Shown here: piece after piece, positions 2-47,810 of the stretch
Layout: the number at the start of each line of letters is the position of its first letter
Numbering within the stretch: the stretch's first letter is position 1
Assembly: GCF_044324875.1 (NCBI RefSeq)
Contig: NZ_CP172185.1
DNA length: 64,000 bases
Strand: one strand, 5' to 3'
Source: Escherichia coli
GTDB taxonomy: Bacteria; Pseudomonadota; Gammaproteobacteria; Enterobacterales; Enterobacteriaceae
Made by a program: the position numbers and the translations under genes
The notes under the pieces: model-generated
What the model saw: only the letters and a program-made list of their open reading frames with translations
Told to the model about the DNA's origin: nothing
Database searches by the model: none

Positions 2-439
2 AACTGCCTTTCCGTGGTTCAGTATGCAGTGGATGTACTCGAAGTTGAACACATTATTATCTGTGGTCACTACGGTTGCGGCGGCGTACAAGCCGCAGTT
101 GAAAACCCGGAACTGGGGCTTATCAACAACTGGCTGCTGCATATCCGCGATATCTGGTTCAAACATAGCTCATTGCTCGGCGAAATGCCGCAAGAGCGCC
201 GTCTGGATACCTTGTGTGAACTGAACGTCATGGAACAGGTGTATAACCTGGGCCACTCCACCATTATGCAATCAGCGTGGAAACGCGGGCAGAAAGTCAC
301 CATTCACGGCTGGGCCTACGGCATTCACGACGGCTTGCTGCGTGATCTGGATGTCACAGCGACCAACCGCGAAACTCTTGAGCAACGTTACCGTCACGGG
401 ATTTCCAATCTCAAGCTGAAACACGCCAACCACAAATAA
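2..439 (+). CDS. can: beta-class carbonic anhydrase, 5' partial (N-terminus lies upstream of the window)
   Basis: Frame open from window edge; translation ...[28 protein letters not shown]...KLKHANHK matches the C-terminal ~145 aa of E. coli Can as I recall it. Confidence 0.9.
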
Positions 440-447
440 AAATGCCA

Positions 448-470
448 TGCCGGATGCAACACATCCGGCA
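448..470. terminator. Inverted repeat (tgccggatg / catccggca) between convergent can and hpt; likely bidirectional terminator
   Basis: Perfect 9-bp stem seen in sequence, located between two convergent stop codons. Confidence 0.45.
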
Positions 471-479
471 ACTTCACAC

Positions 480-1016
480 TTACTCGTCCAGCAGAATCAC
501 TTTGCCGATATACGGCAGATGACGGTAACGCTGTGCGTAATCAATGCCGTAACCCACCACAAACTCATCCGGGATCGAGAAACCGATGAATTCTACCGGG
601 ACGTTCACTTCACGACGGGACGGTTTATCCAGCAGCGTACAAATCGCCAACGACTTCGGTTCGCGCAGGCTTAAGATCTCACGCACTTTCGACAGTGTAT
701 TACCCGAGTCGATGATATCTTCAACAATCAGCACGTCCTTGCCACGGATATCTTCATCCAGATCTTTGAGGATTTTCACATCACGGGTGGTGGACATGCC
801 GCTACCGTAGCTGGAGGCGGTCATAAAATCGACTTCATGAGATACCTGAACTTCACGACACAGGTCCGCCATAAACATAAATGAGCCACGCAGCAGACCC
901 ACCAGCACCATATCGCTGCCGCTGTCTTTGTAACGCTCAGTAATCTGACGACCCAGTTCGGCGATACGCGCTTTAATCTCCGCTTCGGGGATCATTACTT
1001 CTACAGTATGTTTCAT
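480..1016 (-). CDS. hpt: hypoxanthine phosphoribosyltransferase
   Basis: ORF 480..1091; start moved to conserved [18 protein letters not shown] (ATG at 1014-1016 on the minus strand) giving 178 aa; PRTase motif [13 protein letters not shown]. Confidence 0.9.
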
Positions 1017-1221
1017 ATCTCTAACCATATGATTTAAAAACAAATCACTTCGCACGGGCAGGTTTTGGCACCGTAACAAAGCGCAAGACACGCAGTATAC
1101 CAGTAAAACTATTCATTCGCGGAATCTGTTAATAAAGCTCGAATTGTGATGACGATCACACATGTTAAAACCTATAATTAATTGCTACTAAAATATTAAT
1201 GAATTGAAATGGTGTCTCTTT

Positions 1222-3612
1222 ATGGCAATTAACAATACAGGCTCGCGACGATTACTCGTCACGCTAACAGCCCTTTTTGCAGCGCTTTGCGGGCTGTATC
1301 TACTCATTGGCGGAGGCTGGCTGGTCGCGATTGGCGGCTCCTGGTACTACCCTATCGCTGGTCTTGTGATGCTCGGCGTCGCCTGGATGCTGTGGCGCAG
1401 TAAACGTGCTGCGCTTTGGCTGTACGCCGCCCTGCTGCTCGGCACCATGATTTGGGGCGTCTGGGAAGTTGGTTTCGACTTCTGGGCGCTGACTCCGCGC
1501 AGCGACATTCTGGTCTTCTTCGGCATCTGGCTGATCCTGCCGTTTGTCTGGCGTCGCCTGGTCATTCCTGCCAGCGGCGCAGTTGCCGCACTGGTGGTGG
1601 CACTGTTGATTAGCGGTGGTATCCTGACCTGGGCCGGATTTAACGATCCGCAGGAAATCAACGGCACCTTAAGCGCCGATGCCACACCTGCCGAAGCCAT
1701 CTCCCCCGTTGCCGATCAGGACTGGCCTGCCTATGGTCGCAATCAGGAAGGTCAACGCTTTTCACCTCTGAAACAAATTAACGCTGATAACGTCCACAAC
1801 CTTAAAGAAGCCTGGGTGTTCCGGACTGGCGATGTGAAGCAGCCGAACGATCCAGGTGAAATCACCAATGAAGTGACGCCAATTAAAGTGGGCGACACCC
1901 TTTACCTGTGTACCGCGCACCAGCGCCTGTTTGCGCTCGATGCCGCCAGCGGCAAAGAGAAATGGCATTACGATCCTGAGCTGAAGACCAACGAGTCTTT
2001 CCAGCACGTAACCTGTCGTGGCGTCTCTTATCATGAAGCCAAAGCAGAAACCGCTTCGCCGGAAGTGATGGCGGATTGCCCGCGTCGTATCATTCTTCCG
2101 GTCAATGATGGTCGCCTGATTGCGATTAACGCTGAAAACGGCAAGCTGTGCGAAACCTTCGCTAATAAAGGCGTGCTCAATCTGCAAAGCAATATGCCGG
2201 ACACCAAGCCGGGTCTGTATGAGCCGACTTCGCCGCCGATTATCACCGATAAAACCATCGTGATGGCCGGTTCAGTCACCGATAACTTCTCAACCCGCGA
2301 AACGTCTGGCGTGATCCGTGGTTTTGATGTCAACACCGGGGAGCTGCTGTGGGCTTTTGATCCGGGCGCGAAAGATCCGAACGCAATCCCGTCTGACGAA
2401 CACACCTTTACCTTTAACTCACCAAACTCGTGGGCACCAGCGGCCTATGACGCGAAGCTGGATCTGGTCTATCTGCCGATGGGCGTGACCACGCCGGATA
2501 TCTGGGGCGGTAACCGCACACCGGAACAGGAACGTTATGCCAGCTCGATTCTGGCGCTGAATGCCACTACCGGGAAACTGGCGTGGAGCTACCAGACCGT
2601 TCATCACGACCTGTGGGATATGGATCTTCCGGCACAGCCGACGCTGGCGGACATCACCGTTAACGGTCAAAAGGTTCCGGTCATTTATGCTCCAGCGAAA
2701 ACCGGTAACATTTTTGTGCTCGATCGTCGTAACGGCGAACTGGTGGTTCCGGCACCGGAAAAACCGGTTCCCCAAGGTGCTGCCAAAGGCGATTACGTAA
2801 CCCCAACTCAACCGTTTTCTGAACTGAGCTTCCGTCCGACGAAAGATTTGAGCGGTGCGGATATGTGGGGAGCCACCATGTTTGACCAGCTGGTGTGCCG
2901 CGTGATGTTCCACCAGATGCGCTATGAAGGCATTTTCACCCCGCCATCTGAACAGGGTACGCTGGTCTTCCCGGGCAACCTGGGGATGTTCGAATGGGGC
3001 GGGATTTCCGTTGATCCGAATCGTGAAGTGGCAATTGCCAACCCAATGGCACTGCCGTTTGTTTCGAAACTGATCCCACGCGGTCCTGGTAACCCGATGG
3101 AGCAGCCGAAAGATGCCAAAGGCACGGGTACGGAATCCGGCATTCAGCCGCAGTACGGTGTACCGTATGGCGTCACGCTCAATCCGTTCCTCTCACCGTT
3201 TGGTCTGCCATGTAAACAGCCAGCATGGGGTTATATTTCGGCGCTGGATCTGAAAACCAATGAAGTGGTGTGGAAGAAACGTATTGGTACGCCGCAGGAC
3301 AGTATGCCGTTCCCGATGCCGGTTCCGGTGCCGTTCAATATGGGGATGCCGATGCTGGGCGGGCCAATCTCCACAGCGGGTAACGTACTGTTTATCGCCG
3401 CTACGGCAGATAACTACCTGCGCGCTTACAACATGAGCAACGGTGAAAAACTGTGGCAGGGTCGTTTACCAGCGGGTGGTCAGGCTACGCCAATGACCTA
3501 TGAAGTGAATGGTAAGCAGTATGTGGTGATCTCCGCAGGCGGTCACGGTTCATTTGGTACGAAGATGGGCGACTATATTGTGGCTTATGCGCTGCCGGAT
3601 GATGTGAAGTAA
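1222..3612 (+). CDS. gcd: membrane-bound PQQ-dependent glucose dehydrogenase
   Basis: ORF 1204..3612; conserved start MAINNTGSRRLL at 1222 gives 796 aa; N-terminal TM helices then PQQ beta-propeller domain. Confidence 0.9.
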   Translation: MAINNTGSRRLLVTLTALFAALCGLYLLIGGGWLVAIGGSWYYPIAGLVMLGVAWMLWRSKRAALWLYAALLLGTMIWGVWEVGFDFWALTPRSDILVFFGIWLILPFVWRRLVIPASGAVAALVVALLISGGILTWAGFNDPQEINGTLSADATPAEAISPVADQDWPAYGRNQEGQRFSPLKQINADNVHNLKEAWVFRTGDVKQPNDPGEITNEVTPIKVGDTLYLCTAHQRLFALDAASGKEKWHYDPELKTNESFQHVTCRGVSYHEAKAETASPEVMADCPRRIILPVNDGRLIAINAENGKLCETFANKGVLNLQSNMPDTKPGLYEPTSPPIITDKTIVMAGSVTDNFSTRETSGVIRGFDVNTGELLWAFDPGAKDPNAIPSDEHTFTFNSPNSWAPAAYDAKLDLVYLPMGVTTPDIWGGNRTPEQERYASSILALNATTGKLAWSYQTVHHDLWDMDLPAQPTLADITVNGQKVPVIYAPAKTGNIFVLDRRNGELVVPAPEKPVPQGAAKGDYVTPTQPFSELSFRPTKDLSGADMWGATMFDQLVCRVMFHQMRYEGIFTPPSEQGTLVFPGNLGMFEWGGISVDPNREVAIANPMALPFVSKLIPRGPGNPMEQPKDAKGTGTESGIQPQYGVPYGVTLNPFLSPFGLPCKQPAWGYISALDLKTNEVVWKKRIGTPQDSMPFPMPVPVPFNMGMPMLGGPISTAGNVLFIAATADNYLRAYNMSNGEKLWQGRLPAGGQATPMTYEVNGKQYVVISAGGHGSFGTKMGDYIVAYALPDDVK

Positions 3613-25181: not shown

Positions 25182-26468
25182 GTGCTAACCATGGACTCGA
25201 AATCTCTTGTTGAACTTTCCCATGATATACAATCCGGACTAGGAAACATTGACGTTCCAGATTTTGATAACATCAAAACTATCGGAATGGCATCAATACT
25301 AGCAATGCATATACGCGGATTGGGAGAAATTGATTATGAAGTTTTAAGGAAAGTCAGTGACTTCTTTTTCAACATACCTTCATATGCTTTAAAAAGCGTA
25401 TTGGAAGTACTGGCTGAGATAGAATATGTAGATTTAATAACGAAAGACAAAAAAATATTGTCAGTAATTCCAAACGTTCCTCGATTCAAAGATCTCTATC
25501 AAGGTGTTGGTGATTATTTCACATTTAGCGATCTCAACGAACATGAGCAAGGCACATTGATAATATTATCTAATCTTCAAAACAAACCCGAAAACAGAGA
25601 CAAACTAATTCATTCTACAGGCATCGACAATACTCTTTTTTCTCGTTGTTTAGAGATTGGTGAAAAAGGTAACTATTTTAGAAATTATAGAGCTAGAGGA
25701 AAAAACATCATAGCTAGCCCATTTTATTTTGCCGATAATTTAGAGTCACTTGTCGATATTTCAGCCAAAATTGGTTCGAATGATATTGATGCTGTTTTAA
25801 AAATTATAAAAGATAATCAGGGATGGCCTCTCTCACTGATCGAATCACAATTAGAAATCGGTGGAAAAAAGCTAACAAAAGTACAAAAAGAACTTTTAAT
25901 TGGTTTTTGCCAAGAGGGTGTACTCAAACCCCCTTCAATTGATTTCGGAAACCAAAAACAAGAAACATTCATATTCACACCGAGGCCCGGAAATATAAAA
26001 TTGAATGCAGCTAACAGAGAGATTTATGAACGAGCAATGGCGTTAGTTTCTTGCGTTAGGAAAGGACAATTACTGCACGACAAATATAGAATAAGGCTTC
26101 CAGTTAGGATATTGGAATCATTAAAAGAAAAAGGTTATCTTAATCAAAATTCAGAAGCTGCATCCCAGTATAGGAATCTGGTGTTTTTGAAGGTTGGAAT
26201 GCTAAAAGCTAAGGATCATAACAAGTGGGAATTTCATTTAATAAAAACAGAAGAAAACATTGAAGCATTAGATTTAGCAATAAGTCTCTTAAAAACAGGA
26301 GAACTTGCAAATTTAGAAGTTGATCAAAATGCAAAAATAGCATTAACACAAGATGAAAAATACATTCAATCGATCATTAGCTCCGCAGAACTTAGAACTA
26401 GAGAGAAGATAAAACAAAGCGAGGAAGCAAAAGAACAATTTGAACAACTGATTTTCGAAATGGAGTAA
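25182..26468 (+). CDS. uncharacterised protein, island cargo gene A (no recognisable motif)
   Basis: 428-aa ORF from GTG at 25182; more likely ATG at 25191 (MDSKSLVELSHD...) preceded by AGGTG; AT-rich codon usage; first gene of a coupled pair. Confidence 0.6.
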   Translation: MLTMDSKSLVELSHDIQSGLGNIDVPDFDNIKTIGMASILAMHIRGLGEIDYEVLRKVSDFFFNIPSYALKSVLEVLAEIEYVDLITKDKKILSVIPNVPRFKDLYQGVGDYFTFSDLNEHEQGTLIILSNLQNKPENRDKLIHSTGIDNTLFSRCLEIGEKGNYFRNYRARGKNIIASPFYFADNLESLVDISAKIGSNDIDAVLKIIKDNQGWPLSLIESQLEIGGKKLTKVQKELLIGFCQEGVLKPPSIDFGNQKQETFIFTPRPGNIKLNAANREIYERAMALVSCVRKGQLLHDKYRIRLPVRILESLKEKGYLNQNSEAASQYRNLVFLKVGMLKAKDHNKWEFHLIKTEENIEALDLAISLLKTGELANLEVDQNAKIALTQDEKYIQSIISSAELRTREKIKQSEEAKEQFEQLIFEME

Positions 26469-27571
26469 TGGTAATGGCTAACTTAGATAAAGACCTAGGT
26501 TTGAAGCAAGACGCTATAAGGTTTTGCTTGATAAATGGTTACTTGCCATTTTTAGAAGTTAACGTTGAAAACTATAGGGAACTTTCTGATACATCTACAA
26601 TTATAACAGATGTAGATGTTTTAGGGGTTGCTTTTGATATAACTGGAAAAACCAGAAAGATAATTTTCGATTGTAAAACCATTAAAAATACCAGCCCTAT
26701 TAATAGAGCGTTTTGGGCTTCCGGTGTTATGAATTTTTTAGGCTATGATGAAGCATTCATCATATTAAGAAAGAAAGCAAGTGAGGCCCATAGACTTTCC
26801 GCAAAAACAATTAATGTCCACCTTTTTGATGAAGATCAAATGAAAGGATATGCTCAATCATTTTCAATGAATTTCAATATTGATTTAAGCTACTCTACGG
26901 ACATTAATAATTGGATAAGTATACAGGAAGTATATAAAACAGATAAAACCATCCAAAAATATGGCGAATTTTTAGCAAGTTCGGTTCCTACAGAAAATGA
27001 TCCAGCGAAGAATTTGAGAAGATTTATTGCTGCTTTACAAAAAGTGAAGAATGAACTAGACCCTCAAAAAAATAAACACAGAGCAATTTACTTGCATAGT
27101 CTAATGACATTCTCATATATTATGGCATGCTTAGTGCAGCAACTAAGAGGGTTAATTGATTTTGATTATAATCAGAATGAATTCACAAGACTTCTCAAAT
27201 ATTATATCTGGGGAGGGAAGGATAGCTTTATATTAAGACATAAGATGAGAGAACTAATCTCATCTAATGACAGTTCGATTCAAAATATAGAGCCAGAGTT
27301 AAGGAATTGGGATGACTTTATTGAACTCACAAGGAGTCTACTTGACTCTCCTAATGATATAATTAAATGTTGCCATGTGTTACGTGAATTTAGTTTTTTA
27401 GAACTATCCATGCATGACATTAAAAAGGATGAGCAACTATCCACTCTAATTTCAGATAATTCAAGAATTCGTCAATTTATAATGATAATGGCTAGATACT
27501 TAACCAACTCGATGAAAATGCCAAAAGATTTCATTAACGATCTAGTATCAATATTTGATAGATTGAGATAA
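26468..27571 (+). CDS. uncharacterised protein, island cargo gene B, with N-terminal PD-(D/E)xK-like nuclease motif
   Basis: 367-aa ORF; ATG overlaps the stop of gene A (TAATG); alternative ATG at 26474 has better GGAG spacing; motif TDVDVLGV...(18 aa)...IIFDCK. Confidence 0.6.
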   Translation: MVMANLDKDLGLKQDAIRFCLINGYLPFLEVNVENYRELSDTSTIITDVDVLGVAFDITGKTRKIIFDCKTIKNTSPINRAFWASGVMNFLGYDEAFIILRKKASEAHRLSAKTINVHLFDEDQMKGYAQSFSMNFNIDLSYSTDINNWISIQEVYKTDKTIQKYGEFLASSVPTENDPAKNLRRFIAALQKVKNELDPQKNKHRAIYLHSLMTFSYIMACLVQQLRGLIDFDYNQNEFTRLLKYYIWGGKDSFILRHKMRELISSNDSSIQNIEPELRNWDDFIELTRSLLDSPNDIIKCCHVLREFSFLELSMHDIKKDEQLSTLISDNSRIRQFIMIMARYLTNSMKMPKDFINDLVSIFDRLR

Positions 27572-27708: not shown

Positions 27709-28266
27709 TCAGGAGGCATTCATTTCTTTTTTCACGCGAAACACTGTAGCCCTGCCACAATCGCACAACTTTGCAATCTCATCCGGTGTGTTCTTCCCAG
27801 CTTGAAGCATCTCAATGATTTTACTGTGTAATTCTTTGTTCTTTTGCTTTCCTTTATACTTCTTAGCCTCTTTAGCAAGGGCAATTCCTTCGTTGCGACG
27901 TGATGCGATCATTCCCCGCTCAAATTCTGCAACGGCTCCCATCATGGTTAAGATTAAACGAGATTGTGGGGAGTTATCGAAACTCATTGAGTTAGCAAGG
28001 AACTGAACAGTGATCCCGCGAGCAACGAGGCTATCAATCATTTCCAGCAAATCGCGGGTATTACGTGCAAGGCGATCAATCGAGTGAGTCATGAGCGTAT
28101 CACCTTCGCGGAGGTGTGAAAGCAGGTTCAACAATTCAGGTCTCTCGCTGGTGGACTTACCTGATTCTTTCTCGGTGACGATTTTGTCACAAACAGGTTC
28201 CAGTACTGCCAACTGACGCTCAAGATTCTGATCCTTTGTTGAGACTCTCGCGTAACCAAAAATCAT
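27709..28266 (-). CDS. small serine recombinase (resolvase/invertase family)
   Basis: ORF 27709..28296; likely start MIFGYARVSTKDQNLERQ (ATG at 28264-28266 on the minus strand, preceded by GAGGGCAGGGAA); catalytic Ser in the YARVST motif; C-terminal HTH. Confidence 0.8.
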   Translation of the reverse strand: MIFGYARVSTKDQNLERQLAVLEPVCDKIVTEKESGKSTSERPELLNLLSHLREGDTLMTHSIDRLARNTRDLLEMIDSLVARGITVQFLANSMSFDNSPQSRLILTMMGAVAEFERGMIASRRNEGIALAKEAKKYKGKQKNKELHSKIIEMLQAGKNTPDEIAKLCDCGRATVFRVKKEMNAS

Positions 28267-28285
28267 TTCCCTGCCCTCACCGCTG

Positions 28286-28356
28286 ATAAGTATCATTTAA
28301 ATTAACTGAATGATACAGTATCATTTAAATTCTTTCAATGTCTAAATGATACTAAA
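28286..28356. repeat. res-like recombination site: two adjacent palindromes built from four GTATCATT(T) half-sites
   Basis: GTATCATT(11 bp)AATGATAC at 28290-28316 and GTATCATTT(17 bp)AAATGATAC at 28318-28352, directly upstream of the resolvase start. Confidence 0.5.
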
Positions 28357-28814
28357 CGAGACAAGAAAAACGGGTATCGTTAGGGAGTACCCAAAAGAGA
28401 TTTTTGATCGTGCGTTTTTTAGTCAATGTAGGGTTAGTGAAAAGTTCAGTACCGAGATCTGAGTTCACGGCATTTTGTCGACGGGGTTGAACCTGATTAG
28501 GCGAACGAGATTTTAAATCAGGCGGAATAAAACAAGTTGTACTTTTATCTGAGTAAACGATCCCTTTAACTTTTTAGTCAGAAATCGTGATACTAGGGGT
28601 TTGGTTATTTTGTGTCCTTAAGGCCAGTACTTTTAGCGAGGACGAAAAAACGGCCTACATGAGAACGCTTACAGTAACTTAAGTATATTATCCAAAAAGT
28701 CACTTAACTTAAATCAATTTGGATGCAAAATCGCCACACTTTGCAAGTGAACACATACCGGGCAACAAGCAAATAAAAAAGGCCACTTTCGCGACCTTGT
28801 ACCAGTACAAACAC

Positions 28815-29174
28815 TCATTCAGAACGATCAAGTACCATATATGCTGGCTGACACATGCTGCCCCGCTCCTGTAGCCAGTAGTAATCAAGATCGGCAACAC
28901 GCACGTCCAATCCAGAATCTACACGGTTGATCTGTAACCGTAGCCCTACAGTATCCTTGTACGATAAACCAGATTTAACATTGTATTTGTACTTAACACC
29001 GTTTTCCTGTTCAAACTGTTTAAGGAAAGGCGTCATTTGTTTCTGAATTTCTTTCAAACAAATAACCTCATTATCAATAGCAAAGGGGGGTTCTGTTTTT
29101 CCATCAGGTACAGCAGCCTGTAAATGAAAGGAAGTACTCAACAATAACAGCATTGCAACAGAAGTCTTTTTCAT
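28815..29174 (-). CDS. small secreted or periplasmic protein of unknown function
   Basis: 119-aa ORF with signal peptide MKKTSVAMLLLLSTSFHLQA; 43 bp downstream of the membrane protein gene on the same strand. Confidence 0.5.
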   Translation of the reverse strand: MKKTSVAMLLLLSTSFHLQAAVPDGKTEPPFAIDNEVICLKEIQKQMTPFLKQFEQENGVKYKYNVKSGLSYKDTVGLRLQINRVDSGLDVRVADLDYYWLQERGSMCQPAYMVLDRSE

Positions 29175-29217
29175 TTTAATTCCTTATTAAAGAACAGTAC
29201 ATTATATTTCAATGGAC

Positions 29218-30258
29218 TTAATAACAATATTTTATATTTCCTTCGGGTTTTCTCATGCATTTAATTCCTTCAGGAATATAATCAGTTACGGGAGCAGGTC
29301 TGGCATCAGGTCTTGAAAGACGATTGGATATAGAAGACAACAGACTGAAAACACACTCATTAAATGATTTTTGATATTTATTTTTTTCATAAAAGTACTG
29401 CATGGTGATTTTATCTCTTTCGTATTGCAATTCTTTGCCAAGCTGAATCCTATCCATATCAATTCCATTTCTCATAGCATTAAATCTTTCGTTCAATAAA
29501 TTAAATTGAGATTTATTCCATTCATTTAAAGGAAATAAAGAATTGTTAAGCCTTTGCCTACAATTAGATTGCTCGATAGCTGACATGTATTCTTTCATAC
29601 TAACGCCAATATCTAAGTATGTGAGTTGTCCAGCAGTTCTATCAACTGAGTTATTAGGGTAAGATTTAATTTCAGTAAGTATTGACTCTGTTAATACTGC
29701 ATTTTCTTCTAAATCTTTGCTAATAGTTATTTGAGCTTGTTCTCTTTTATCCTTATCAAATATTGAAATGTATTTCTTTACTATATCCTGATTAGCTTTC
29801 TCGGCTGCTACTAACGCATCTTGAACCTTCTTTTCCGCCGCTTTAACTCGTTGTTCTTCTACAAATTTCGCGTAGTCATCAGTATTTGTAATGTGATTTT
29901 CACGAGCGATAGAAAACTCTTTACTATCTTTAAAACCAAGTTTTTGTGCTCTGGCTCCATCGCTTGAAGATCGGGCAGAACTTGCCACGAAAGCGAGCAC
30001 AATGATCAGTACAGGAACCGTATAATTATTAACGAGTTTATAGGGTAAGAACTTCGCTTTAAGCGTACCATAACCCAAAACAGCCCAGCCTATCGCGGCA
30101 GTACTTGCCAGTAGCTGGCACAATCCAGCGACGGAAAGCATGATTACCGACCAGAAGCCTGTACCGACTGCGAAAAGATCACCAAATTTCTCCATTGACG
30201 CAAGGAATAAAAACACTCCCCAAATGCCATAAAATCCTATTTTCAAATATTTACTCAC
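29218..30258 (-). CDS. membrane protein of unknown function (three N-terminal TM helices, coiled-coil soluble domain)
   Basis: 346-aa ORF; hydrophobic segments at about residues 7-22, 36-64 and 81-95; Lys/Glu-rich predicted coiled coil; AT-rich. Confidence 0.55.
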   Translation of the reverse strand: MSKYLKIGFYGIWGVFLFLASMEKFGDLFAVGTGFWSVIMLSVAGLCQLLASTAAIGWAVLGYGTLKAKFLPYKLVNNYTVPVLIIVLAFVASSARSSSDGARAQKLGFKDSKEFSIARENHITNTDDYAKFVEEQRVKAAEKKVQDALVAAEKANQDIVKKYISIFDKDKREQAQITISKDLEENAVLTESILTEIKSYPNNSVDRTAGQLTYLDIGVSMKEYMSAIEQSNCRQRLNNSLFPLNEWNKSQFNLLNERFNAMRNGIDMDRIQLGKELQYERDKITMQYFYEKNKYQKSFNECVFSLLSSISNRLSRPDARPAPVTDYIPEGIKCMRKPEGNIKYCY

Positions 30259-30493
30259 CGCAATTATCCTTTAATAATTTTCCAAATCGATGGTTCGTTC
30301 TATTTGTATTATCGACAATAATTCGTTTGCCTTTAGGTAGATCCCTTAAAAAGGAATCCCCCCAAAATTTATAGATTAGCAGTTGTACCACTCTCACTGT
30401 TTTGTCACTCCCATTATCTTCTCTCAGGTCAAAAGTACGGACTTAAAGCCGTCCGTGTTCAGGTGCTCAAGAGTAGCACGCATATCAATAAAT

Positions 30494-30584
30494 GATCGAT
30501 AAAAACGATCAATTAATGGATTATTGATTGCTATAATCGATCAATTACTATTAATTCAATACAAATCAATAGGTAAAATCGATC
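30494..30584. repeat. Cluster of four GATC-centred (A)TCGATCAA(T/G) motifs in an ORF-free island segment
   Basis: GATC at 30494, 30507, 30539 and 30581 within 90 bp of AT-rich DNA, each in a similar CGATCAA context. Confidence 0.4.
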
Positions 30585-31241
30585 AAGAGGATTCGTCATC
30601 CATGAAAGGGGTTATGTATCTGATTTCAATACAGGGAGTATTAGCGATACCATCACGCAAACGCTCTTAAAGCGTAGCTACGGCGTTTTGTAGGGTTTTG
30701 GTCATTCATGTGTGTCAGTAATGAACATCGCATTCAGGGGCTTCCTGTGCGTTTTGTCCGAAACACCATCATGAAGGGGGACAGATCGGATCGGGGTCGC
30801 TTCGCTCTGGTCAGTACTGGATAGTTCTTTTCCAGTAACTGAAACCGCAGATCCCCCACTAAGTACACAAAGGAATCAGTAGTATAATAAGTAATTAAAT
30901 AGCAATCAGTTATGTACTGAATGACAGAACAGAAAAACGCGATTGGTTCGCTCTGCCAGTGACTGAAAGGAACGAAGCAGTAGAACCTAATCCAGCGAAC
31001 AGTACACGCAAAGCGGGTACTGTTTAATTGTTTTATCTATGTAAACAATGGGATAGCTATCAAGTACTCACTGCGTGAGCACTCTCACTAACTACCCGAA
31101 ACAGTTCGCTTGCTTCGCCGCTCCTACTTTCAGGTAGTTAATTCGCTTTCGCTCGTTGTGATGTCCGAAATTTATTACCTATAGTATTATAAGGTATTAT
31201 TTTCCGGACATTTATGTATTTTTATGATGGTGTTCTGGACA

Positions 31242-40806: not shown

Positions 40807-43512
40807 TTATTGCAGGCGACCATGGCACTGCTTGTATTTTTTACCAGAACCGCACGGGCAAGGATCGTTACGTCCTACTTTGCGTTCACCGGTTTGCGCC
40901 GCCAGTGCAGCTGCGGCTGCAGAGTCGTCATCCTGATGGCTAAGCTGCTGCATTTGCGCTAAACGCTCGGCTTCCATACGACGCTGTTGTTCCAGCTCCT
41001 CAACCTCTTCAGGCATACGTACCTGAACTTTGCTCAGCGTGCTGATAACTTCATATTTCAACGACTCCAGCATCGCTGCAAACATGGAGAACGATTCACG
41101 TTTGTATTCCTGCTTCGGATCTTTCTGTGCATAGCCACGCAGGTGGATACCCTGACGCAGATAGTCCATCGCCGCCAGGTGCTCTTTCCACAGAGAGTCG
41201 AGAGTTTGCAGCATGACGCCTTTTTCGAAGTGACGCATCATCTCAGCACCAACCACTTCTTCTTTACGCTGATACACTTCGATGGACTGCGCCAGAATGC
41301 GCTCACGCAGCGTCTCTTCATGCAGTTCTGGTTCTTTATCCAGCCACTCGGCAATTGGCAAATCGAGGTCGAAATCGTTCTTCAGACGTTCCTGCAGCCC
41401 CGGAATATCCCACATTTCTTCCAGCGACTGTGGCGGAATGTAGGCATCAATGGTCACTTTGAACACATCTTCACGAATGCTGTTGATGGTTTCGCTCACA
41501 TCGCTGACATCCAGCAGTTCGTTACGCTGGGAGTAAATGGCGCGACGCTGATCGTTAGCCACGTCATCATATTCCAGCAGTTGCTTACGAATGTCGAAGT
41601 TACGACTTTCAACTTTACGCTGGGCGTTGGCAATCGCTTTAGTCACCCACGGGTGTTCAATGGCTTCGCCTGGCTTCATACCCAGTTTACGCATCATGCC
41701 GGATACTCGGTCGGAGGCAAAAATACGCATCAGCGCATCTTCCATCGACAGGTAGAAACGGGAAGAACCAGCATCCCCCTGACGACCAGAACGACCGCGC
41801 AACTGGTTATCGATACGACGGGATTCGTGACGTTCAGTACCGATGATATGCAGGCCACCTGCTGCCAGTACCGCATCGTGACGAACCTGCCAGTCGGCCT
41901 TAATTTTTTCAATTTGCTCTGCGGTCGGATTTTCCAGCGCGGCAACTTCTGCCTGCCAGCTACCACCGAGCACAATATCTGTACCACGACCCGCCATGTT
42001 GGTCGCGATAGTCACCGCAGCCGGATAACCTGCCTGAGCAACAATCGCCGCTTCGTTGGCGTGGAATTTGGCGTTAAGGACGTTGTGCTTAATACCGGCT
42101 TTGGTCAGTTCGTTTGACACCAGCTCCGATTTTTCGATGGAGATAGTACCCACCAGCACCGGCTGGCCTTTCGCAGTACGTTCTTTGATATCTTCAATGA
42201 TCGCCTGAATTTTTTCCGCTTCAGTCATGTAGACCAGGTCCGGCAGATCTTTACGAATCATTGGACGGTTGGTCGGAACAACGACGGTATCCAGCTTGTA
42301 GATGGAGCTAAATTCGAAAGCTTCGGTATCAGCAGTACCGGTCATCCCCGCCAGTTTTTCATACAGACGGAAGTAGTTCTGGAAGGTGATCGACGCCAGC
42401 GTCTGGTTTTCGTTCTGGATCTGTACACCTTCTTTCGCTTCCACTGCCTGATGCAGGCCATCGGACCAACGACGTCCCTGCATGGTACGACCGGTGTGTT
42501 CGTCAACGATGATAACTTCACCATCTTTAACGATGTAGTCGACGTCTCGGGTAAACAGCGCATGAGCGCGCAGCGCCGCCGTTACGTGGTGCATCAGCAT
42601 GATGTTGGCCGGAGAGTACAGAGACTCCCCTTCATCCATGATGCCTTCTTTCACCAGCAGTTCTTCAATCAGCACCAGACCACGTTCGGTCAGGTTCACC
42701 TGGCGAGATTTTTCGTCCACCGAGAAGTGGCCTTCGCCCTGGAAGGTTTCGGAGTCTTCTTTTTCCTGACGGATCAGGTGCGGAATAATTTTATTCACGC
42801 GTTTATACATTTCCGAGCTGTCTTCTGCCGGGCCGGAAATGATCAGCGGTGTACGCGCTTCATCGATCAGGATGGAGTCCACTTCGTCCACCAGCGCATA
42901 GTGCAGTTTACGCTGTACACGTTCTTCAGGGCTGAACGCCATGTTATCGCGCAGGTAGTCAAAGCCGTATTCGTTGTTCGTACCGTAAGTGATGTCAGCT
43001 GCGTAAGCTTCACGCTTCGCCGGTGCTGGCATGCCCGGCAGGTTGATACCGACAGTCAGGCCAAGGAATTCAAACAGCGGACGGTTGTTTTCGGCGTCAC
43101 GTTGCGCCAGGTAGTCGTTGACGGTAACAACGTGTACGCCCTTACCGGTTAATGCGTTCAGGTAAGCAGGCAGCGTTGCGGTCAGGGTTTTACCTTCACC
43201 GGTACGCATTTCGGCGATGCAGCGTTCGTTAAGAACCATACCGCCGAGTAACTGAACGTCGAAGTGACGCATACCAAAGACGCGCTTACTTGCCTCACGC
43301 ACCACGGCGAAAGCTTCCGGGATCAGATTTTCCAGCACTTCGCCTTTTTCAAGACGTGCACGAAACTCTGCAGTTTTCCCTTTCAGTTCTTCGTCGGAGA
43401 GTTTTTCCATCTCCGGTTCCATGGCATTGATGATGTTGACCACTTTGCGCATCCGGCGCAGGGTGCGATCGTTACGACTACCGAAAACTTTAGTTAATAA
43501 TTTGATTAGCAT
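40807..43512 (-). CDS. secA: preprotein translocase ATPase SecA
   Basis: 901 aa, [25 protein letters not shown]..., C-terminal zinc site [14 protein letters not shown]. Confidence 0.95.
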
Positions 43513-45335: not shown

Positions 45336-46487
45336 TTAATCAGCTTGCTTACGCAGGAATGCTGGGATATCCAGATAATCCGGCTCTTTCGCAGTTTGCG
45401 GCGCATTGTCATTCACGACTTTAGCAACCGGCTTCTGCTCCTGGGTCAGCGGAGCCATCCCGTGCTGCTGGTAGCGATCCATCACTGGCTGCTGAACCTG
45501 CTTATTGGTCACCAGAGTGATTTCAGGACGTTTGTCCATGCCGATACCTGTCGCAACAACAGTTACGCGCAGCTCGTCATTCATATCCGGGTCAAGAGAA
45601 GTACCAATAACCACAGTCGCGTTGTCGGAAGCAAATGCACGGATGGTGTTACCTACCGTTTCAAACTCATCCAGACGCAGGTCGAAGCCCGCCGTGATGT
45701 TAACCAGCACGCCGCGTGCGCCAGACAGGTCGATATCTTCCAGCAGCGGAGAAGAGATAGCCATTTCAGCAGCTTCTTCCGCACGGTCTTCACCACTCGC
45801 CACGCCAGAACCCATCATTGCGTAGCCCATTTCAGACATTACGGTGCGTACGTCTGCAAAGTCCACGTTCATCAAACCCGGACGAGTAATCAGTTCGGCG
45901 ATACCTTGCACTGCGCCTTTCAGTACATCGTTCGCTGCGCCAAACGCATCCAGCAGGGAGATACCGCGGCCCAGAACTTTCAGCAGTTTGTCGTTCGGGA
46001 TAGTGATCAGAGAGTCCACATGTTTGGACAGTTCAGTGATCCCCTGCTCCGCGAATGCCATACGCTTCTTGCCTTCAAAGTTGAAAGGCTTAGTGACGAC
46101 AGCAACGGTCAGGATACCCAAATCTTTTGCCACTTCAGCGACGACTGGAGCTGCGCCTGTACCGGTACCACCACCCATACCCGCAGCAATAAAGACCATG
46201 TCTGCACCTTCCAGCGCCGCACGCAGTGCATCGCGATCCTCATCAGCCGCATTACGGCCAACTTCTGGATTAGCGCCAGCGCCCAGTCCTTTGGTGATAC
46301 CGCTACCGATTTGAATCGTCTGTCCAACCGCTGTTTTACGCAGCGCTTGTGCATCGGTATTTACCGCGAAGAATTCAACACCTTCAATGCGCTCGCGCAC
46401 CATGTGTTCAACAGCATTACCGCCGCCGCCGCCGACGCCGATGACTTTAATCACCGCGTCATTGGTAAGTTCCATTGGTTCAAACAT
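45336..46487 (-). CDS. ftsZ: cell division GTPase FtsZ
   Basis: 383 aa, tubulin signature GGGTGTG. Confidence 0.95.
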
Positions 46488-46547
46488 AGTTTCTCTCCGA
46501 TTTGTGCCTGTCGCCTGAGGCCGTAATCATCGTCGGCCTCATAAAAA

Positions 46548-47810
46548 TTAAAACTCTTTTCGCAGCCAACTATTGAGTCGCTTGATCCACGAGCCAACTG
46601 ATGCTGTAACACGTTTTTCTACTTCAGCTTCACCGTTAAGATGTGACTCTTTTCCATAGTGAAGCAATCCCACCGCCGTCGAATAATACGGCTCCTGAGC
46701 ATAATCCGTTAAACCGGTAATGTTCAGCGGCGCGCCGATACGCACTTGCGTATGAAACACGCGCTGAGCACAGGCTGCAAGACCTTCGATCTGCGCTGCG
46801 CCACCAGTTAAAACAATGCCTGCCGCCAGGTGATGTTTAACCCCTTGTTGGCGAAGCTTTTCCTGCAACTGCAATATCTCTTCGTTGACCAAGTTGAGCA
46901 GCTCGGTATAGCGCGGCTCGATCACCTCTGCCAGGGTCTGACGTTGCAGACTCCGCGGTGGACGACCGCCTACGCTCGGCACTTCCACGCTCTCATCTTT
47001 TCCAACGATGGAACCCAGCGCACAACCGTGGCGAACTTTAATCGCTTCGGCGTCGCTTGGCGGCGTGCCAAAGGCGTAAGCGATATCACTGGTCACGACA
47101 TTGCCAGCATAAGGAATTACCTTAGTGTGGCGCAATGCCCCACCGGTATAAACGGCGATATCCATTGTACCACCACCGATATCGACGACGCAGACACCCA
47201 GTTCACGTTCATCTTCCGTCAATACCGAATAACTTGATGCCAGTCCGGCAAATATCAGTTGGTCAACTTTCAGCCCACAACGTTCAACCGCTTTGACGAT
47301 GTTTTTCGCCATATCGTTGTGACATGTGATCAGGTGCACTTTTGCCTGCATCCGCACGCCCGAAAGTCCTACCGGATTCTTGATCCCTTCCTGATAGTCA
47401 ATCGCATACTCTTGCGGGATCACATGCAGCACACGATGCTCATCGCGCACACGCACCGATTTCGCGGTATGGACGACGTTTTCCACATCTTCTTGCGTCA
47501 CTTCTTCTTCAGAAATAGGCACCATACCAATTTCATTCTGGCAGCTGATGTGCTTACCAGAAAGCGCCAGATATACCGAAGAGATCTGACAATCTGCCAT
47601 CAATTCTGCCTGGTCAATGGCGCGTTGTACGCACTTGACCACGGATTCGAGGTCGTTCACCCCGCCTTTATCCATACCACGCGACGGGCAGCTGCCCACG
47701 CCAATGATATTGACCATACCGTCGGGCAGAACTTCCCCTACTAAAGCGGCAACCTTCGCGGTACCAATCTCCAGTCCTACTACCAGTTTTCTGTCCGTCG
47801 CCTTGATCAT
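46548..47810 (-). CDS. ftsA: cell division protein FtsA (actin-like ATPase)
   Basis: 420 aa, [27 protein letters not shown]... Confidence 0.95.

What the first reader, a model, noticed from the sequence alone, without database searches (positions are those of the whole stretch)
30260..31241. About 1 kb ORF-free structured region inside the island
No ORF of 60 aa or more on either strand, yet the segment is rich in structure. Four (A)TCGATCAA motifs each contain a Dam GATC site within 90 bp (30494-30584), plus two adjacent GATC at about 30785-30793. There is a perfect hairpin acggac-ttaaagcc-gtccgt (about 30437-30456). CCAGT(A/G)ACTGAAA is repeated at about 30831 and 30956, and TTCGCT-type short repeats occur at 31095-31155. 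A long imperfect hairpin (gtccgaaa ... tttccggac) at 31163-31209 lies just downstream of the P-loop gene. This could be an origin or iteron region, a Dam-sensitive regulatory switch for the adjacent membrane operon, or a non-coding RNA.
Basis: seen in the sequence. Interest (0 to 1): 0.55.

Follow-up and report, generated by a model that had tools for sequence, protein, structure and literature searches.

The report
Phase-switch promoter plus likely island origin
The gene-free kilobase is two separate control elements of a small mobile island of E. coli: a copy of the DNA-methylation on/off switch known from the antigen 43 gene, and a repeat-rich structured element that always follows a replication-type helicase gene and is probably the island's replication origin.

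Summary
The window is E. coli MSI001. Positions 30260-31241 are an intergenic gap in a ~9.6 kb island inserted in ppdD.

Comparison with about 30 related islands shows two independent modules.

Left part (about 30260-30590, read on the minus strand): a promoter, operator and leader for the membrane-protein operon. It aligns with the E. coli K-12 agn43 (flu) promoter and its OxyR/Dam operator. The -35, -10 and start site correspond, and three GATC sites keep the 19 and 13 bp spacing (z = 14-17 in relatives, 9.6 here). The MSI001 copy has lost GATC-I and has a mutated -10. In some relatives a CI-like repressor plus HTH gene pair sits here instead.

Right part (30755-31241): a ~490 bp element bounded by a conserved inverted repeat. 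It has TTCGCT and AGTAC repeats and an AT-rich core, and always abuts the 3' end of an XPD/DinG-like helicase gene. Longer relatives of that helicase are fused to primases. I read it as the island's replication origin, which is an inference. A structured RNA is the main rival.

Verdict: a new instance of a known epigenetic switch, plus an uncharacterised helicase-linked cis element. Moderate interest.

The parts
30259..30530 (-). Inferred 5' leader (about 270 nt) of the membrane/secreted-protein operon, running from the start site inferred by alignment with agn43/isrC (about 30530) to the GTG start at 30258.
   Evidence: cmscan aligns 30531-30427 (minus strand) with the IS102/isrC RNA, which is the agn43 leader, weakly (21 bits, E 0.55). 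The alignment with K-12 flu places the start-site equivalent at C30530. The leader folds at z -3.4.
30437..30456 (-). Leader hairpin (ACGGAC/GTCCGT) followed on the minus strand by ACUUUUGACC; attenuator- or terminator-like.
   Evidence: Relatives keep the stem, with G-U wobbles on the minus strand (L008 GCGGAT/ATCCGT, L006 ACGGAT/GTCCGT). cmscan aligns the U-run with the end of isrC.
30486..30590 (-). agn43-type promoter with an OxyR/Dam operator. On the minus strand: -35 TTGTAT (30564-30559); -10 equivalent TCGATT (30540-30535; TAGATT/TAGTTT in relatives); former GATC-I now AATC (30529-30526); GATC-II 30507-30510; GATC-III 30494-30497; an extra GATC inside the -10 (30539-30542); a conserved upstream GATC (30581-30584).
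   Evidence: Local alignment with the K-12 flu region gives z 9.6 for the window and 13.6-16.9 for relatives. Relatives keep the 19 and 13 bp GATC spacing, and 22/22 bases are identical over TTATCGATCGTTTATATCGATC in L013. GC is 0.26.
30591..30734 (.). Spacer between the two modules, function unknown. It contains an invariant TATCTGATTTCAATAC and a 22-codon ORF (30603-30671, + strand) that is not consistently intact.
   Evidence: The ORF is intact in 7 of 12 distinct variants and lost, truncated or extended in 5. The stretch is replaced by unrelated sequence in L005 and L022.
30735..30757 (+). Terminator-like hairpin CAGGGGCUUCCUG followed by UGCGUUUUGU on the + strand, at the outer edge of the right-hand module. 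In CI-type relatives it lies just 3' of the CI-like repressor gene.
   Evidence: Promoter/terminator scan. Conserved in 19 sequences. Gene layout of L025 and L026.
30755..31241 (.). Module A: a conserved, inverted-repeat-bounded, repeat-rich structured element directly 3' of the helicase gene. Inferred replication origin of the island; rival reading, a structured RNA.
   Evidence: Present in every relative next to the helicase stop codon. DNA identity is 80-92% in L014 and L022, where the helicase gene is 43-85% identical, mostly 45-70%. Base pairing is kept above controls: 16 pairs changed on both sides against 7.5 +/- 1.9 in shuffles, reached by 0 of 500.
30755..30775 (+). Distal arm of the bounding inverted repeat, TGTCCGAAACACCATCATGAA.
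   Evidence: The pair is found in nearly every locus holding module A, about 427-474 bp apart, usually 465-474. A distant relative, L148, has 24-nt arms of different sequence, 92% complementary, 429 nt apart.
31221..31241 (-). Helicase-proximal arm of the inverted repeat (TGTCCAGAACACCATCAT on the minus strand), abutting the helicase stop codon.
   Evidence: In L004, L008, L010 and L022 this arm lies inside the 3' end of the helicase coding sequence, in a different reading frame from other relatives.
30799..30965 (.). Two copies of GGTTCGCTCTG..CAGTRACTG (30799-30821 and 30945-30965) flanking an AT-rich core (30866-30940, GC 0.31).
   Evidence: The core is the least conserved part of the module and is partly deleted in L021 and L026.
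30998..31024 (+). Hairpin AACAGUACACGC-AAA-GCGGGUACUGUU followed by UAAUUGUUUUAU.
   Evidence: Conserved. It shows a compensatory C-G to U-A change in Rouxiella, and U-G wobbles that pair only on the + strand.
31063..31083 (.). Palindrome AGTACTCAC-tgc-GTGAGCACT. Its 15-mer GTGAGTACTTGATAG (minus strand, 31057-31071) recurs elsewhere in relatives.
   Evidence: one compensatory change, in Pantoea. Near-identical 15-mers lie next to the att sites and upstream of the helicase gene in tyrosine-integrase islands.
31105..31153 (+). Cluster of TTCGCT-type repeats (31105, 31112 TTCGCC, 31142, 31148).
   Evidence: nearly invariant in 19 sequences.
31161..31211 (.). Long AT-rich hairpin whose tips carry the TGTCCGAAA motif in both orientations.
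   Evidence: Absent in L004, L008, L010 and L022, so it is not essential to the module.
31242..32717 (-). XPD/DinG-like SF2 helicase with a C-terminal GRP (AT-hook-like) motif and a helical tail; the proposed partner of module A.
28815..30258 (-). Two-gene operon under the switch: a 346-aa membrane protein (29218-30258) and a 119-aa secreted protein (28815-29174), ended by a terminator at 28798-28779.
   Evidence: The gene order is conserved in all relatives.

Best explanation
The ORF-free kilobase is the non-coding backbone of a small integrative island. The same backbone occurs across Enterobacterales, with either a large serine or a tyrosine integrase and with variable, mostly defence-type cargo. 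The gap holds two independent modules.

(1) Positions 30259-30590, read on the minus strand, are the promoter, operator and about 270-nt leader of the membrane-protein/secreted-protein operon. This stretch is a relative of the agn43 (flu) control region: a sigma-70 promoter whose start region is covered by an OxyR site containing three Dam GATC sites. By analogy, OxyR bound to unmethylated GATCs would hold the operon OFF. Methylation of the GATCs would exclude OxyR and give a heritable ON state. A leader hairpin would add attenuation. The homology is shown here. OxyR binding and switching are inferred. The MSI001 copy has lost GATC-I and carries A-to-C at the second position of the -10, so its switch may be weakened or locked; this is also an inference.

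(2) Positions 30755-31241 are a cis-acting element that belongs to the adjacent XPD/DinG-like helicase. It has two inverted copies of an 18-21 bp site at its ends, TTCGCT and CAGTNACTG repeats on both sides of an AT-rich core, and several conserved hairpins. I propose that it is the replication origin used by the excised island. In this model the helicase binds the repeated sites through its C-terminal domain and opens the AT-rich core. The small serine recombinase at the other end of the island would resolve multimers. This part is an inference from anatomy and from the domain fusions of the helicase family.

The confidence given (0.5) is for the composite: about 0.75 for part 1 as an agn43-type switch region, and about 0.4-0.45 for part 2 as an origin.
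For: Module 1:
- cmscan places the agn43 leader RNA (IS102/isrC) on the minus strand at 30427-30531, though weakly.
- Direct alignment with K-12 flu covers the promoter spacer, -10, start site and all three GATCs, with identical 19/13 bp spacing in relatives. z is 13.6-16.9 in relatives and 9.6 in the window.
- It is conserved in more than 20 loci, including the distant L148.
- It faces the operon, and the leader hairpin is kept through minus-strand G-U changes.
- At exactly this place other islands carry a divergent CI-like S24 repressor and an HTH gene, so this position is a regulatory slot.
- OxyR/Dam switches are established for agn43, gtr and opvAB, all of which encode envelope functions (PMC4856963).

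Module 2:
- It is always directly 3' of the helicase gene.
- The bounding inverted repeat is kept at about 470 bp spacing in nearly every locus, and in L148 with a different arm sequence.
- Repeats are far above chance.
- The core is AT-rich (GC 0.31) between flanks of GC 0.46-0.53.
- Providencia relatives instead carry 199-bp tandem repeats at the same place.
- The helicase has a high-confidence SF2 XPD/DinG-like fold.
- Seven of 10 long relatives have an N-terminal primase by PHROGs, and one has Pfam Prim-Pol.
- A primase-helicase relative, L149, is also followed by 710 bp of repeat-rich non-coding DNA.
- The island also encodes an integrase and a small resolvase-type recombinase.
Against: Module 1:
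- No OxyR binding, methylation or expression data exist.
- The Rfam match is far below the gathering score (21 against 46 bits).
- The window copy lacks GATC-I and has a poor -10, so it may not switch at all.
- The promoter scan did not call this promoter.

Module 2:
- There is no DnaA box.
- The element has never been seen on a plasmid or phage record, and all 57 E. coli copies are chromosomal.
- The module is 80-92% identical between islands whose helicases are only about 55% identical, so it does not co-vary with the helicase as iterons usually do.
- Paired positions show compensatory changes above controls, and G-T mismatches favour the + strand (53 against 22 cells; 22 against 11 distinct types). 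This fits a single-stranded nucleic acid, possibly RNA.
- The island has no primase gene.
Confidence: 0.5

Rival explanations
1. Module A (30755-31241) encodes a structured non-coding RNA. It could be a ~490-nt + strand RNA closed by the inverted repeat, or a shorter RNA ending at the 30998-31024 hairpin. It would work with the helicase or regulate it, for example as an antisense or primer RNA.
For: Folding z-scores are -5.6 and -6.7. Base pairing is conserved, with 16 pairs changed on both sides against 7.5 in shuffles. G-U-compatible mismatches favour the + strand in the inverted repeat and the 31161 hairpin (53 against 22 cells). Two + strand hairpins are followed by U-runs. GC is higher than in the flanking genes. 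The sequence is more conserved than the neighbouring gene.
Against: No Rfam family matches, even at E up to 5. No convincing conserved promoter was found on either strand. One hairpin (31063-31083) favours the opposite strand, and L148 favours the helicase-sense strand. Compact palindromes such as CAGTACTG cannot form hairpins and look like protein sites. The strand asymmetry is weak once shared ancestry is allowed for.
Confidence: 0.25
2. Module A is an invertible DNA segment or another recombination substrate of the island's small serine recombinase, with the bounding inverted repeats as crossover sites.
For: The 21-24 bp inverted repeats flank a ~470 bp segment in every relative. The island encodes a 195-aa serine recombinase that matches the PHROG family 'DNA invertase' at E 7e-59.
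Against: No inverted copy was seen. All 54 E. coli genomes align colinearly, with 48 covering at least 80% in one place. All of about 30 fetched loci, including L148, have the same internal orientation. The arms are not hix/gix-like dyads. The recombinase gene lies about 2.5 kb away.
Confidence: 0.07
3. Module A is a different kind of cis site: a packaging (pac/cos) site that lets a helper phage package the island, or an origin of transfer for mobilisation.
For: It is a conserved non-coding element in the backbone of a mobile island. Some relatives have an SOS-type CI-like repressor, as satellites and prophages do. The structured hairpins resemble oriT or sso regions.
Against: There is no DNA similarity to any phage or plasmid record. 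The island has no relaxase, terminase or capsid gene. The constant partner is a helicase of a primase-fused family.
Confidence: 0.08
4. The whole kilobase, GATC cluster included, is a single Dam/SeqA-controlled origin with iterons.
For: The GATC cluster, an AT-rich stretch and repeats lie within 1 kb next to a helicase gene.
Against: The GATC cluster is separable from module A. It is replaced by a repressor gene pair in L021, L025 and L026, and it occurs without the helicase in L005. It also aligns base for base with the agn43 promoter/operator.
Confidence: 0.05
5. The region is decayed coding sequence or neutral spacer with chance motifs.
For: Small ORFs exist, and one 22-codon ORF is partly conserved.
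Against: Conservation is at the nucleotide level, with 1-nt indels and no codon periodicity. Identity is higher than in the flanking genes. Motifs and structure are far above shuffles.
Confidence: 0.02

Closest known systems
agn43 (flu) regulatory region of E. coli, with its leader RNA isrC (Rfam RF00124 'IS102')
   Same: Same order of elements: -35 TTGTNN, a 17-18 bp spacer, -10 TAGNNT, 5 bases, then GATC-I, 19 bp, GATC-II, 13 bp, GATC-III. Identity is up to about 80% over 60 bp in relatives. A long leader follows, with a hairpin and U-run before the first gene.
   Different: It drives an unrelated operon (membrane protein plus small secreted protein) in a different mobile element. It has an extra conserved GATC upstream of the -35. 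The rest of the leader is unrelated. The MSI001 copy has lost GATC-I and altered the -10. OxyR binding has not been tested.
opvAB and gtr OxyR/Dam phase-variation loci of Salmonella
   Same: Four GATC sites in about 90 bp in front of an operon for envelope proteins. Both are horizontally acquired, and switching gives subpopulations (PMC4856963).
   Different: In opvAB and gtr the OxyR half-sites lie upstream of the promoter and OxyR also activates. Here most sites lie at and downstream of the start site, as in agn43. There is no sequence similarity to opvAB, and none was tested for the proteins.
Rep-adjacent origins of phage-inducible chromosomal islands (SaPI/PICI pri-rep-ori); this comparison is from my own knowledge
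   Same: An integrative island in which a helicase-type initiator gene is followed directly by a non-coding origin made of repeated sites flanking an AT-rich stretch.
   Different: The helicase here has an SF2 XPD/DinG-like fold and no primase domain. The island has no packaging or capsid-redirection genes. Replication is untested. The element does not co-vary with the helicase.
Herpesvirus UL9 origin-binding protein with oriS
   Same: An SF2 helicase with a C-terminal DNA-binding part that recognises inverted sites flanking an AT-rich centre; the origin can form a hairpin. There is a weak N-terminal sequence match to UL9 structures (E 0.29). The UL9 box CGTTCGCACTT resembles GGTTCGCTCTG; this is recalled from memory and is probably coincidence.
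   Different: No significant homology beyond the helicase core. UL9 is not among the top structural matches. The host domain is entirely different.
Invertible switches of the Hin/Gin/Cin type
   Same: A short non-coding segment bounded by ~20 bp inverted repeats in an element that encodes a small serine recombinase.
   Different: Only one orientation is seen in all genomes, and the arms lack the dyad form of hix/gix sites.

Membership tests
OxyR/Dam phase-variation switch, agn43 type | Three GATC sites with agn43 spacing (19 and 13 bp) inside the operator | tested here: met
   More than 20 relatives keep GATC-I, -II and -III at 18-20 and 13 bp. The window keeps II and III (30507, 30494), has lost I (CAATC) and has gained a GATC at 30539.
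OxyR/Dam phase-variation switch, agn43 type | Sequence similarity to the agn43 OxyR site, and its position at or just downstream of the -10 and start site | tested here: met
   Local alignment z is 9.6 (window) and 13.6-16.9 (relatives). It covers the -10, the start-site equivalent and the three GATCs.
OxyR/Dam phase-variation switch, agn43 type | OxyR binds the unmethylated site, and Dam methylation blocks binding | not testable with these tools
   Needs EMSA or footprinting, or methylome data.
OxyR/Dam phase-variation switch, agn43 type | Heritable ON/OFF expression that depends on dam and oxyR | not testable with these tools
   Needs single-cell reporters in dam and oxyR mutants.
Rfam RF00124 (IS102/isrC RNA) | Score at or above the gathering threshold (46 bits) | tested here: not met
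   21.1 and 20.1 bits, E 0.55 and 0.9. Only the first ~45 positions and the 3' U-run align. I therefore do not file the leader as an isrC family member.
Initiator-adjacent replication origin (iteron or PICI-type) | Lies next to the gene of a replication-type initiator or helicase | tested here: met
   It abuts the helicase stop codon in all loci. The helicase family is fused to primases in long relatives.
Initiator-adjacent replication origin (iteron or PICI-type) | Repeated binding sites flanking an AT-rich unwinding region | tested here: met
   The TGTCCGAAA motif occurs four times. GGTTCGCTCTG..CAGTRACTG occurs twice, flanking a 75-bp core of GC 0.31. TTCGCT occurs six times and AGTAC nine times, in each case reached by 0 of 1000 shuffles.
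Initiator-adjacent replication origin (iteron or PICI-type) | Repeats co-vary with the initiator | tested here: inconclusive
   The repeats differ in Providencia and L148, whose helicases are diverged. The same module, however, serves helicases only about 55% identical in L014 and L022.
Initiator-adjacent replication origin (iteron or PICI-type) | DnaA boxes (present in many theta origins, not all) | tested here: not met
   TTATNCACA with up to 1 mismatch is absent from 30400-31241; the nearest copy is at 30309.
Initiator-adjacent replication origin (iteron or PICI-type) | Supports autonomous replication | not testable with these tools
   No plasmid record carries it. An experiment is needed.
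Invertible DNA switch | Both orientations occur among genomes or reads | tested here: not met
   54 E. coli genomes and about 30 loci all show one orientation.
MITE / non-autonomous transposon | Many copies per genome at different sites | tested here: not met
   The median is one place per genome, always in this island context; the motif occurs only at these two sites in the window.
Any curated RNA family (Rfam 15) | Match at the gathering score within 30260-31241 | tested here: not met
   No match at gathering scores, and none better than E 0.55 in a sensitive scan.

The most novel reading that the evidence does not exclude
Module A is neither a plain double-stranded origin nor a promoter. 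It would be a ~490-nt structured single-stranded nucleic acid, RNA or ssDNA, closed by the conserved inverted repeat, that the XPD/DinG-like helicase uses as a cofactor or substrate. One example would be a transcript-primed origin that stands in for the primase domain the helicase has lost. That would define a new class of helicase-associated non-coding element, shared by a widespread family of defence-carrying islands in Enterobacterales.
Probability: 0.2. Interest if true: 0.75.

Novelty: new variant of a known kind. Interest (0 to 1): 0.5.

Why it matters
If the left module switches like agn43, an uncharacterised envelope operon on a widespread defence-carrying island is expressed in only a subpopulation of cells. 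The same regulatory slot holds an epigenetic switch in some islands and an SOS-type repressor pair in others. That is a clean natural experiment in how mobile elements choose between stochastic and damage-induced expression. The MSI001 copy, with GATC-I lost and the -10 altered, offers a natural 'locked' variant for comparison.

If the right module is an origin, these islands are small integrative replicons with a previously undescribed helicase-origin pair. That would explain how they persist after excision and spread defence cargo across Enterobacterales. It would also give a minimal replicon that could be tested directly. Neither element is annotated in RefSeq.

Tried and rejected
- Rfam, at gathering scores over the whole window and as a sensitive scan of 30150-31350: no family for module A, and only a sub-threshold IS102/isrC hit. 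That hit turned out to be a useful lead.
- BLASTN of the gap against phage and plasmid collections: no match.
- tblastn of the helicase against phages and plasmids: only remote hits, in Agrobacterium phage Atu_ph07 and in Methylobacterium and Sinorhizobium plasmids. These were uninformative.
- PADLOC, NCBIfam and Pfam on the island proteins: no defence-system assignment for the helicase, the membrane protein or the 119-aa protein.
- A metagenome scan with a 15-base degenerate pattern was too permissive: only 5 of 120 stretches were real relatives.
- A whole-island BLAST was swamped by ppdD flank matches.
- DnaA-box search: negative.
- Promoter scan: no convincing sigma-70 site in module A. My hand-found -10-like TAnAAT at 30883-30888 lacks a -35 and is deleted in L021 and L026.
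- Coding hypothesis for the 22-codon ORF at 30603-30671: rejected as inconsistent across variants.
- Invertible-segment and MITE readings: rejected on orientation and copy number.
- Literature searches for the island (ppdD plus serine recombinase; protein accessions) found nothing. The agn43 paper PMC135096 is not held.
Full report
Context. The window matches the chromosome of Escherichia coli MSI001 at 100%. RefSeq annotation shows that 30260-31241 is an intergenic gap inside an island of about 9.6 kb that splits the pilin gene ppdD. In window coordinates the island holds:
- two hypothetical cargo genes (25182-27571, + strand);
- a 195-aa serine recombinase of the invertase/resolvase type (27709-28296, - strand);
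- a 119-aa secreted protein (28815-29174, -);
- a 346-aa membrane protein (29218-30258, -);
- the gap;
- a 491-aa P-loop protein (31242-32717, -);
- a 520-aa large serine recombinase next to ppdD (32793-34355, -).

Observation.
- No ORF reaches 60 aa.
- Four GATC sites lie at 30494, 30507, 30539 and 30581, and two more at 30784 and 30789.
- The hairpins at 30437-30456 and 31161-31211 and the CCAGTRACTGAAA and TTCGCT repeats are all present.
- Exact TCGATCAA occurs only twice.
- The GATC density equals the maximum in the window but is not unique. It is reached in 1.3% of shuffles of the region.
- TTCGCT (6 copies on both strands against 0.48 expected) and AGTAC/GTACT (9 against 1.7) were never reached in 1000 shuffles.

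The gap belongs to a conserved island backbone and is modular. Fifty-four of 5426 complete E. coli genomes carry the gap, always on the chromosome. The order is always small recombinase, 119-aa gene, membrane gene, gap, P-loop gene. This order recurs at thiM, ffs/ybaA, yggR/yggS and ybhA. It comes with either tyrosine or large serine integrases and with different cargo: Hachiman-like DUF1837 plus helicase, a STAND ATPase, SLATT plus SMODS, dual-OB/DUF488/DUF4326, and others. The P-loop protein occurs throughout Enterobacterales. Loci from Dickeya, Yersinia, Hafnia, Pectobacterium, Rouxiella, Morganella, Providencia, Phytobacter, Pantoea, Raoultella, Enterobacter and Tenebrionibacter have the same layout.

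BLAST and alignments split the gap into two parts:
- The part next to the P-loop gene (about 30725-31241, module A) is present in almost all loci.
- The part next to the membrane gene (about 30400-30720, module B) is replaced in Hafnia, Pectobacterium and Rouxiella by a divergent pair of genes: a CI-like repressor with a Peptidase_S24 domain, and a small HTH_35 protein.
- Module B also occurs without the P-loop gene, in E. coli NCTC86.

Module B is an agn43-type promoter/operator. A sensitive Rfam scan gave a weak hit of the IS102 RNA model to the minus strand at 30427-30531. That model is isrC, the leader of agn43 (flu) in K-12. I fetched the K-12 region and compared it directly.
- flu reads TTGTCC-N17-TAGAAT-aaaaC-GATC-N15-GATC-N9-GATC.
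- The island relatives read TTGTAT-N18-TAG(A/T/G)TT-N4-C-GATC-N15-GATC-N9-GATC.
- L013 has 22 of 22 identical bases over TTATCGATCGTTTATATCGATC.
- Local alignment scores are 13.6-16.9 standard deviations above shuffles for relatives and 9.6 for the window.
- The element points toward the membrane operon.

Relatives keep the stem through G-U-compatible changes on the minus strand. The leader folds at z -3.4.

The established model for agn43, gtr and opvAB is as follows. OxyR binds unmethylated GATC-containing sites and blocks Dam. Methylation blocks OxyR. The result is heritable OFF and ON lineages (PMC4856963). By homology I infer the same mechanism here. Binding and switching have not been shown.

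The MSI001 copy, and that of strain 94-3024, differ from the family consensus at two bases. The -10 equivalent TAGATT has become TCGATT, which creates the GATC at 30539. CGATC of GATC-I has become CAATC.

Module A. The element runs from an inverted-repeat arm at 30755-30775 to its partner at 31221-31241, which touches the helicase stop codon.
- The pair is present in nearly every locus holding module A, about 427-474 bp apart, usually 465-474. In some loci the proximal arm lies inside the coding sequence, in a different frame, so it is conserved as DNA or RNA and not as protein.
- In a distant relative from a viral contig (49% protein identity) the arms have a different sequence but are 24 nt long, 92% complementary and 429 nt apart.
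- Inside the element, two copies of GGTTCGCTCTG..CAGTRACTG flank an AT-rich core (GC 0.31, against 0.46-0.53 in the flanks).
- There are two conserved hairpins, a TTCGCT cluster and a long AT-rich hairpin.
- Providencia relatives carry two and a half 199-bp tandem repeats at this place instead.
- The module is 80-92% identical in Phytobacter and Enterobacter bugandensis, where the helicase gene is mostly only 45-70% identical at the DNA level.
- Both strands fold far better than shuffles.
- For a structure made only of the inverted repeats and hairpins, 89% of cells pair. Sixteen pairs changed on both sides, against 7.5 +/- 1.9 in shuffles (reached by 0 of 500), and the covariation score is two to five times that of slid controls.
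- Mismatches in the inverted repeat and the 31161 hairpin are more often G-T on the + strand (53 cells, 22 types) than on the - strand (22 cells, 11 types). This is a weak hint of a + strand single-stranded form. It is contradicted by the 31063 hairpin and by L148.
- No DnaA box, no Rfam family and no phage or plasmid similarity were found.
- All genomes show the same internal orientation.

Mechanism. I commit to a composite reading.
- The left third is a promoter, an OxyR/Dam operator and a leader that give phase-variable expression of the membrane and secreted-protein pair. I put about 0.75 on its being a member of this kind of switch, and less on the MSI001 copy still switching.
- The right half is the cis partner of the helicase, most likely the origin used after excision. 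The helicase would bind the inverted terminal sites and internal repeats and open the AT-rich core. The small serine recombinase would act as multimer resolvase. I put about 0.4-0.45 on this.
- The main rival for the right half is a structured RNA or single-stranded DNA element (about 0.25).
- An invertible segment, a packaging or transfer site, a single Dam-controlled origin, and neutral DNA are each unlikely, for the reasons listed under rivals.

Comparison with known systems. The left module works like the agn43 control region and is homologous to it, but it fails the Rfam isrC threshold, so I do not file its leader under that RNA family. The right module works like the rep-adjacent origins of SaPI/PICI satellites or, more loosely, like herpesvirus UL9 with oriS. 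It belongs to no described replicon family.

Novelty. This is a new instance of a known epigenetic switch in a new genetic context, where it is interchangeable with a CI-type switch. It comes with an uncharacterised helicase-linked non-coding element. Together I rate them a new variant of known kinds, of moderate interest.

Noticed in passing
L004 588-697 and 1843-1951; also L008 2291/3592, L007 12616/13917, L013 3865/5166, L014 3759/5060: In the tyrosine-integrase versions of the island at ffs, the integrase gene is flanked by perfect inverted repeats of at least 110 bp. The repeats include the last ~24 nt of the SRP RNA gene followed by GTAAGTACTTGATAG. This suggests an invertible or duplicated att-integrase cassette.
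   Followed up: partly
window 31057-31071 (-); L013 5844; L004 12636; L008 11889: The 15-mer GTGAGTACTTGATAG of the module A palindrome recurs, with 1-3 mismatches, next to the att sites and upstream of the helicase gene in tyrosine-integrase islands. It may be a shared protein-binding site, possibly for autoregulation.
   Followed up: partly
window 30603-30671 (+): A 22-codon ORF (MKGVMYLISIQGVLAIPSRKRS) with a Shine-Dalgarno-like AAGAGGA. It is intact in 7 of 12 distinct variants and broken or extended in the others. The invariant core TATCTGATTTCAATAC suggests a nucleotide-level role rather than a protein.
   Followed up: yes
window 30526-30542: The MSI001 and 94-3024 copies of the switch differ from the family consensus at two bases: the -10 TAGATT has become TCGATT, and GATC-I CGATC has become CAATC. 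This may be a naturally locked or weakened variant.
   Followed up: partly
window 28297-28814: A second ORF-free gap of about 520 bp lies between the small serine recombinase gene and the 119-aa gene. It could hold the recombinase's own res site. A strong terminator lies at 28798-28779 (- strand).
   Followed up: no
L021 13040-14012, L025 9034-10029, L026 8982-9956: In some relatives the regulatory slot holds a divergent CI-like (HTH_3 plus Peptidase_S24) repressor and an HTH_35 gene instead of the GATC switch. This implies SOS-inducible rather than phase-variable control.
   Followed up: partly
L016 7717-8198 (Providencia rettgeri); also L024: Two and a half tandem copies of a 199-bp unit follow the helicase gene in place of the E. 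coli-type module A.
   Followed up: partly
window 25182-27571: The two cargo genes (428 and 367 aa) have no match in PADLOC, PHROGs or NCBIfam. They sit where other islands carry known defence systems, so they may be an undescribed defence pair.
   Followed up: no
window 46479-46568, 19299-19412, 40762-40831, 40283-40358: Rfam matches at gathering scores elsewhere in the window: PssrA, tp2, STnc40 and naRNA4.
   Followed up: no
NZ_CP062811.1 (hit H17/H82): One E. coli genome carries an insertion of about 32 bp within the gap; the alignment is split in two pieces. Not examined.
   Followed up: no
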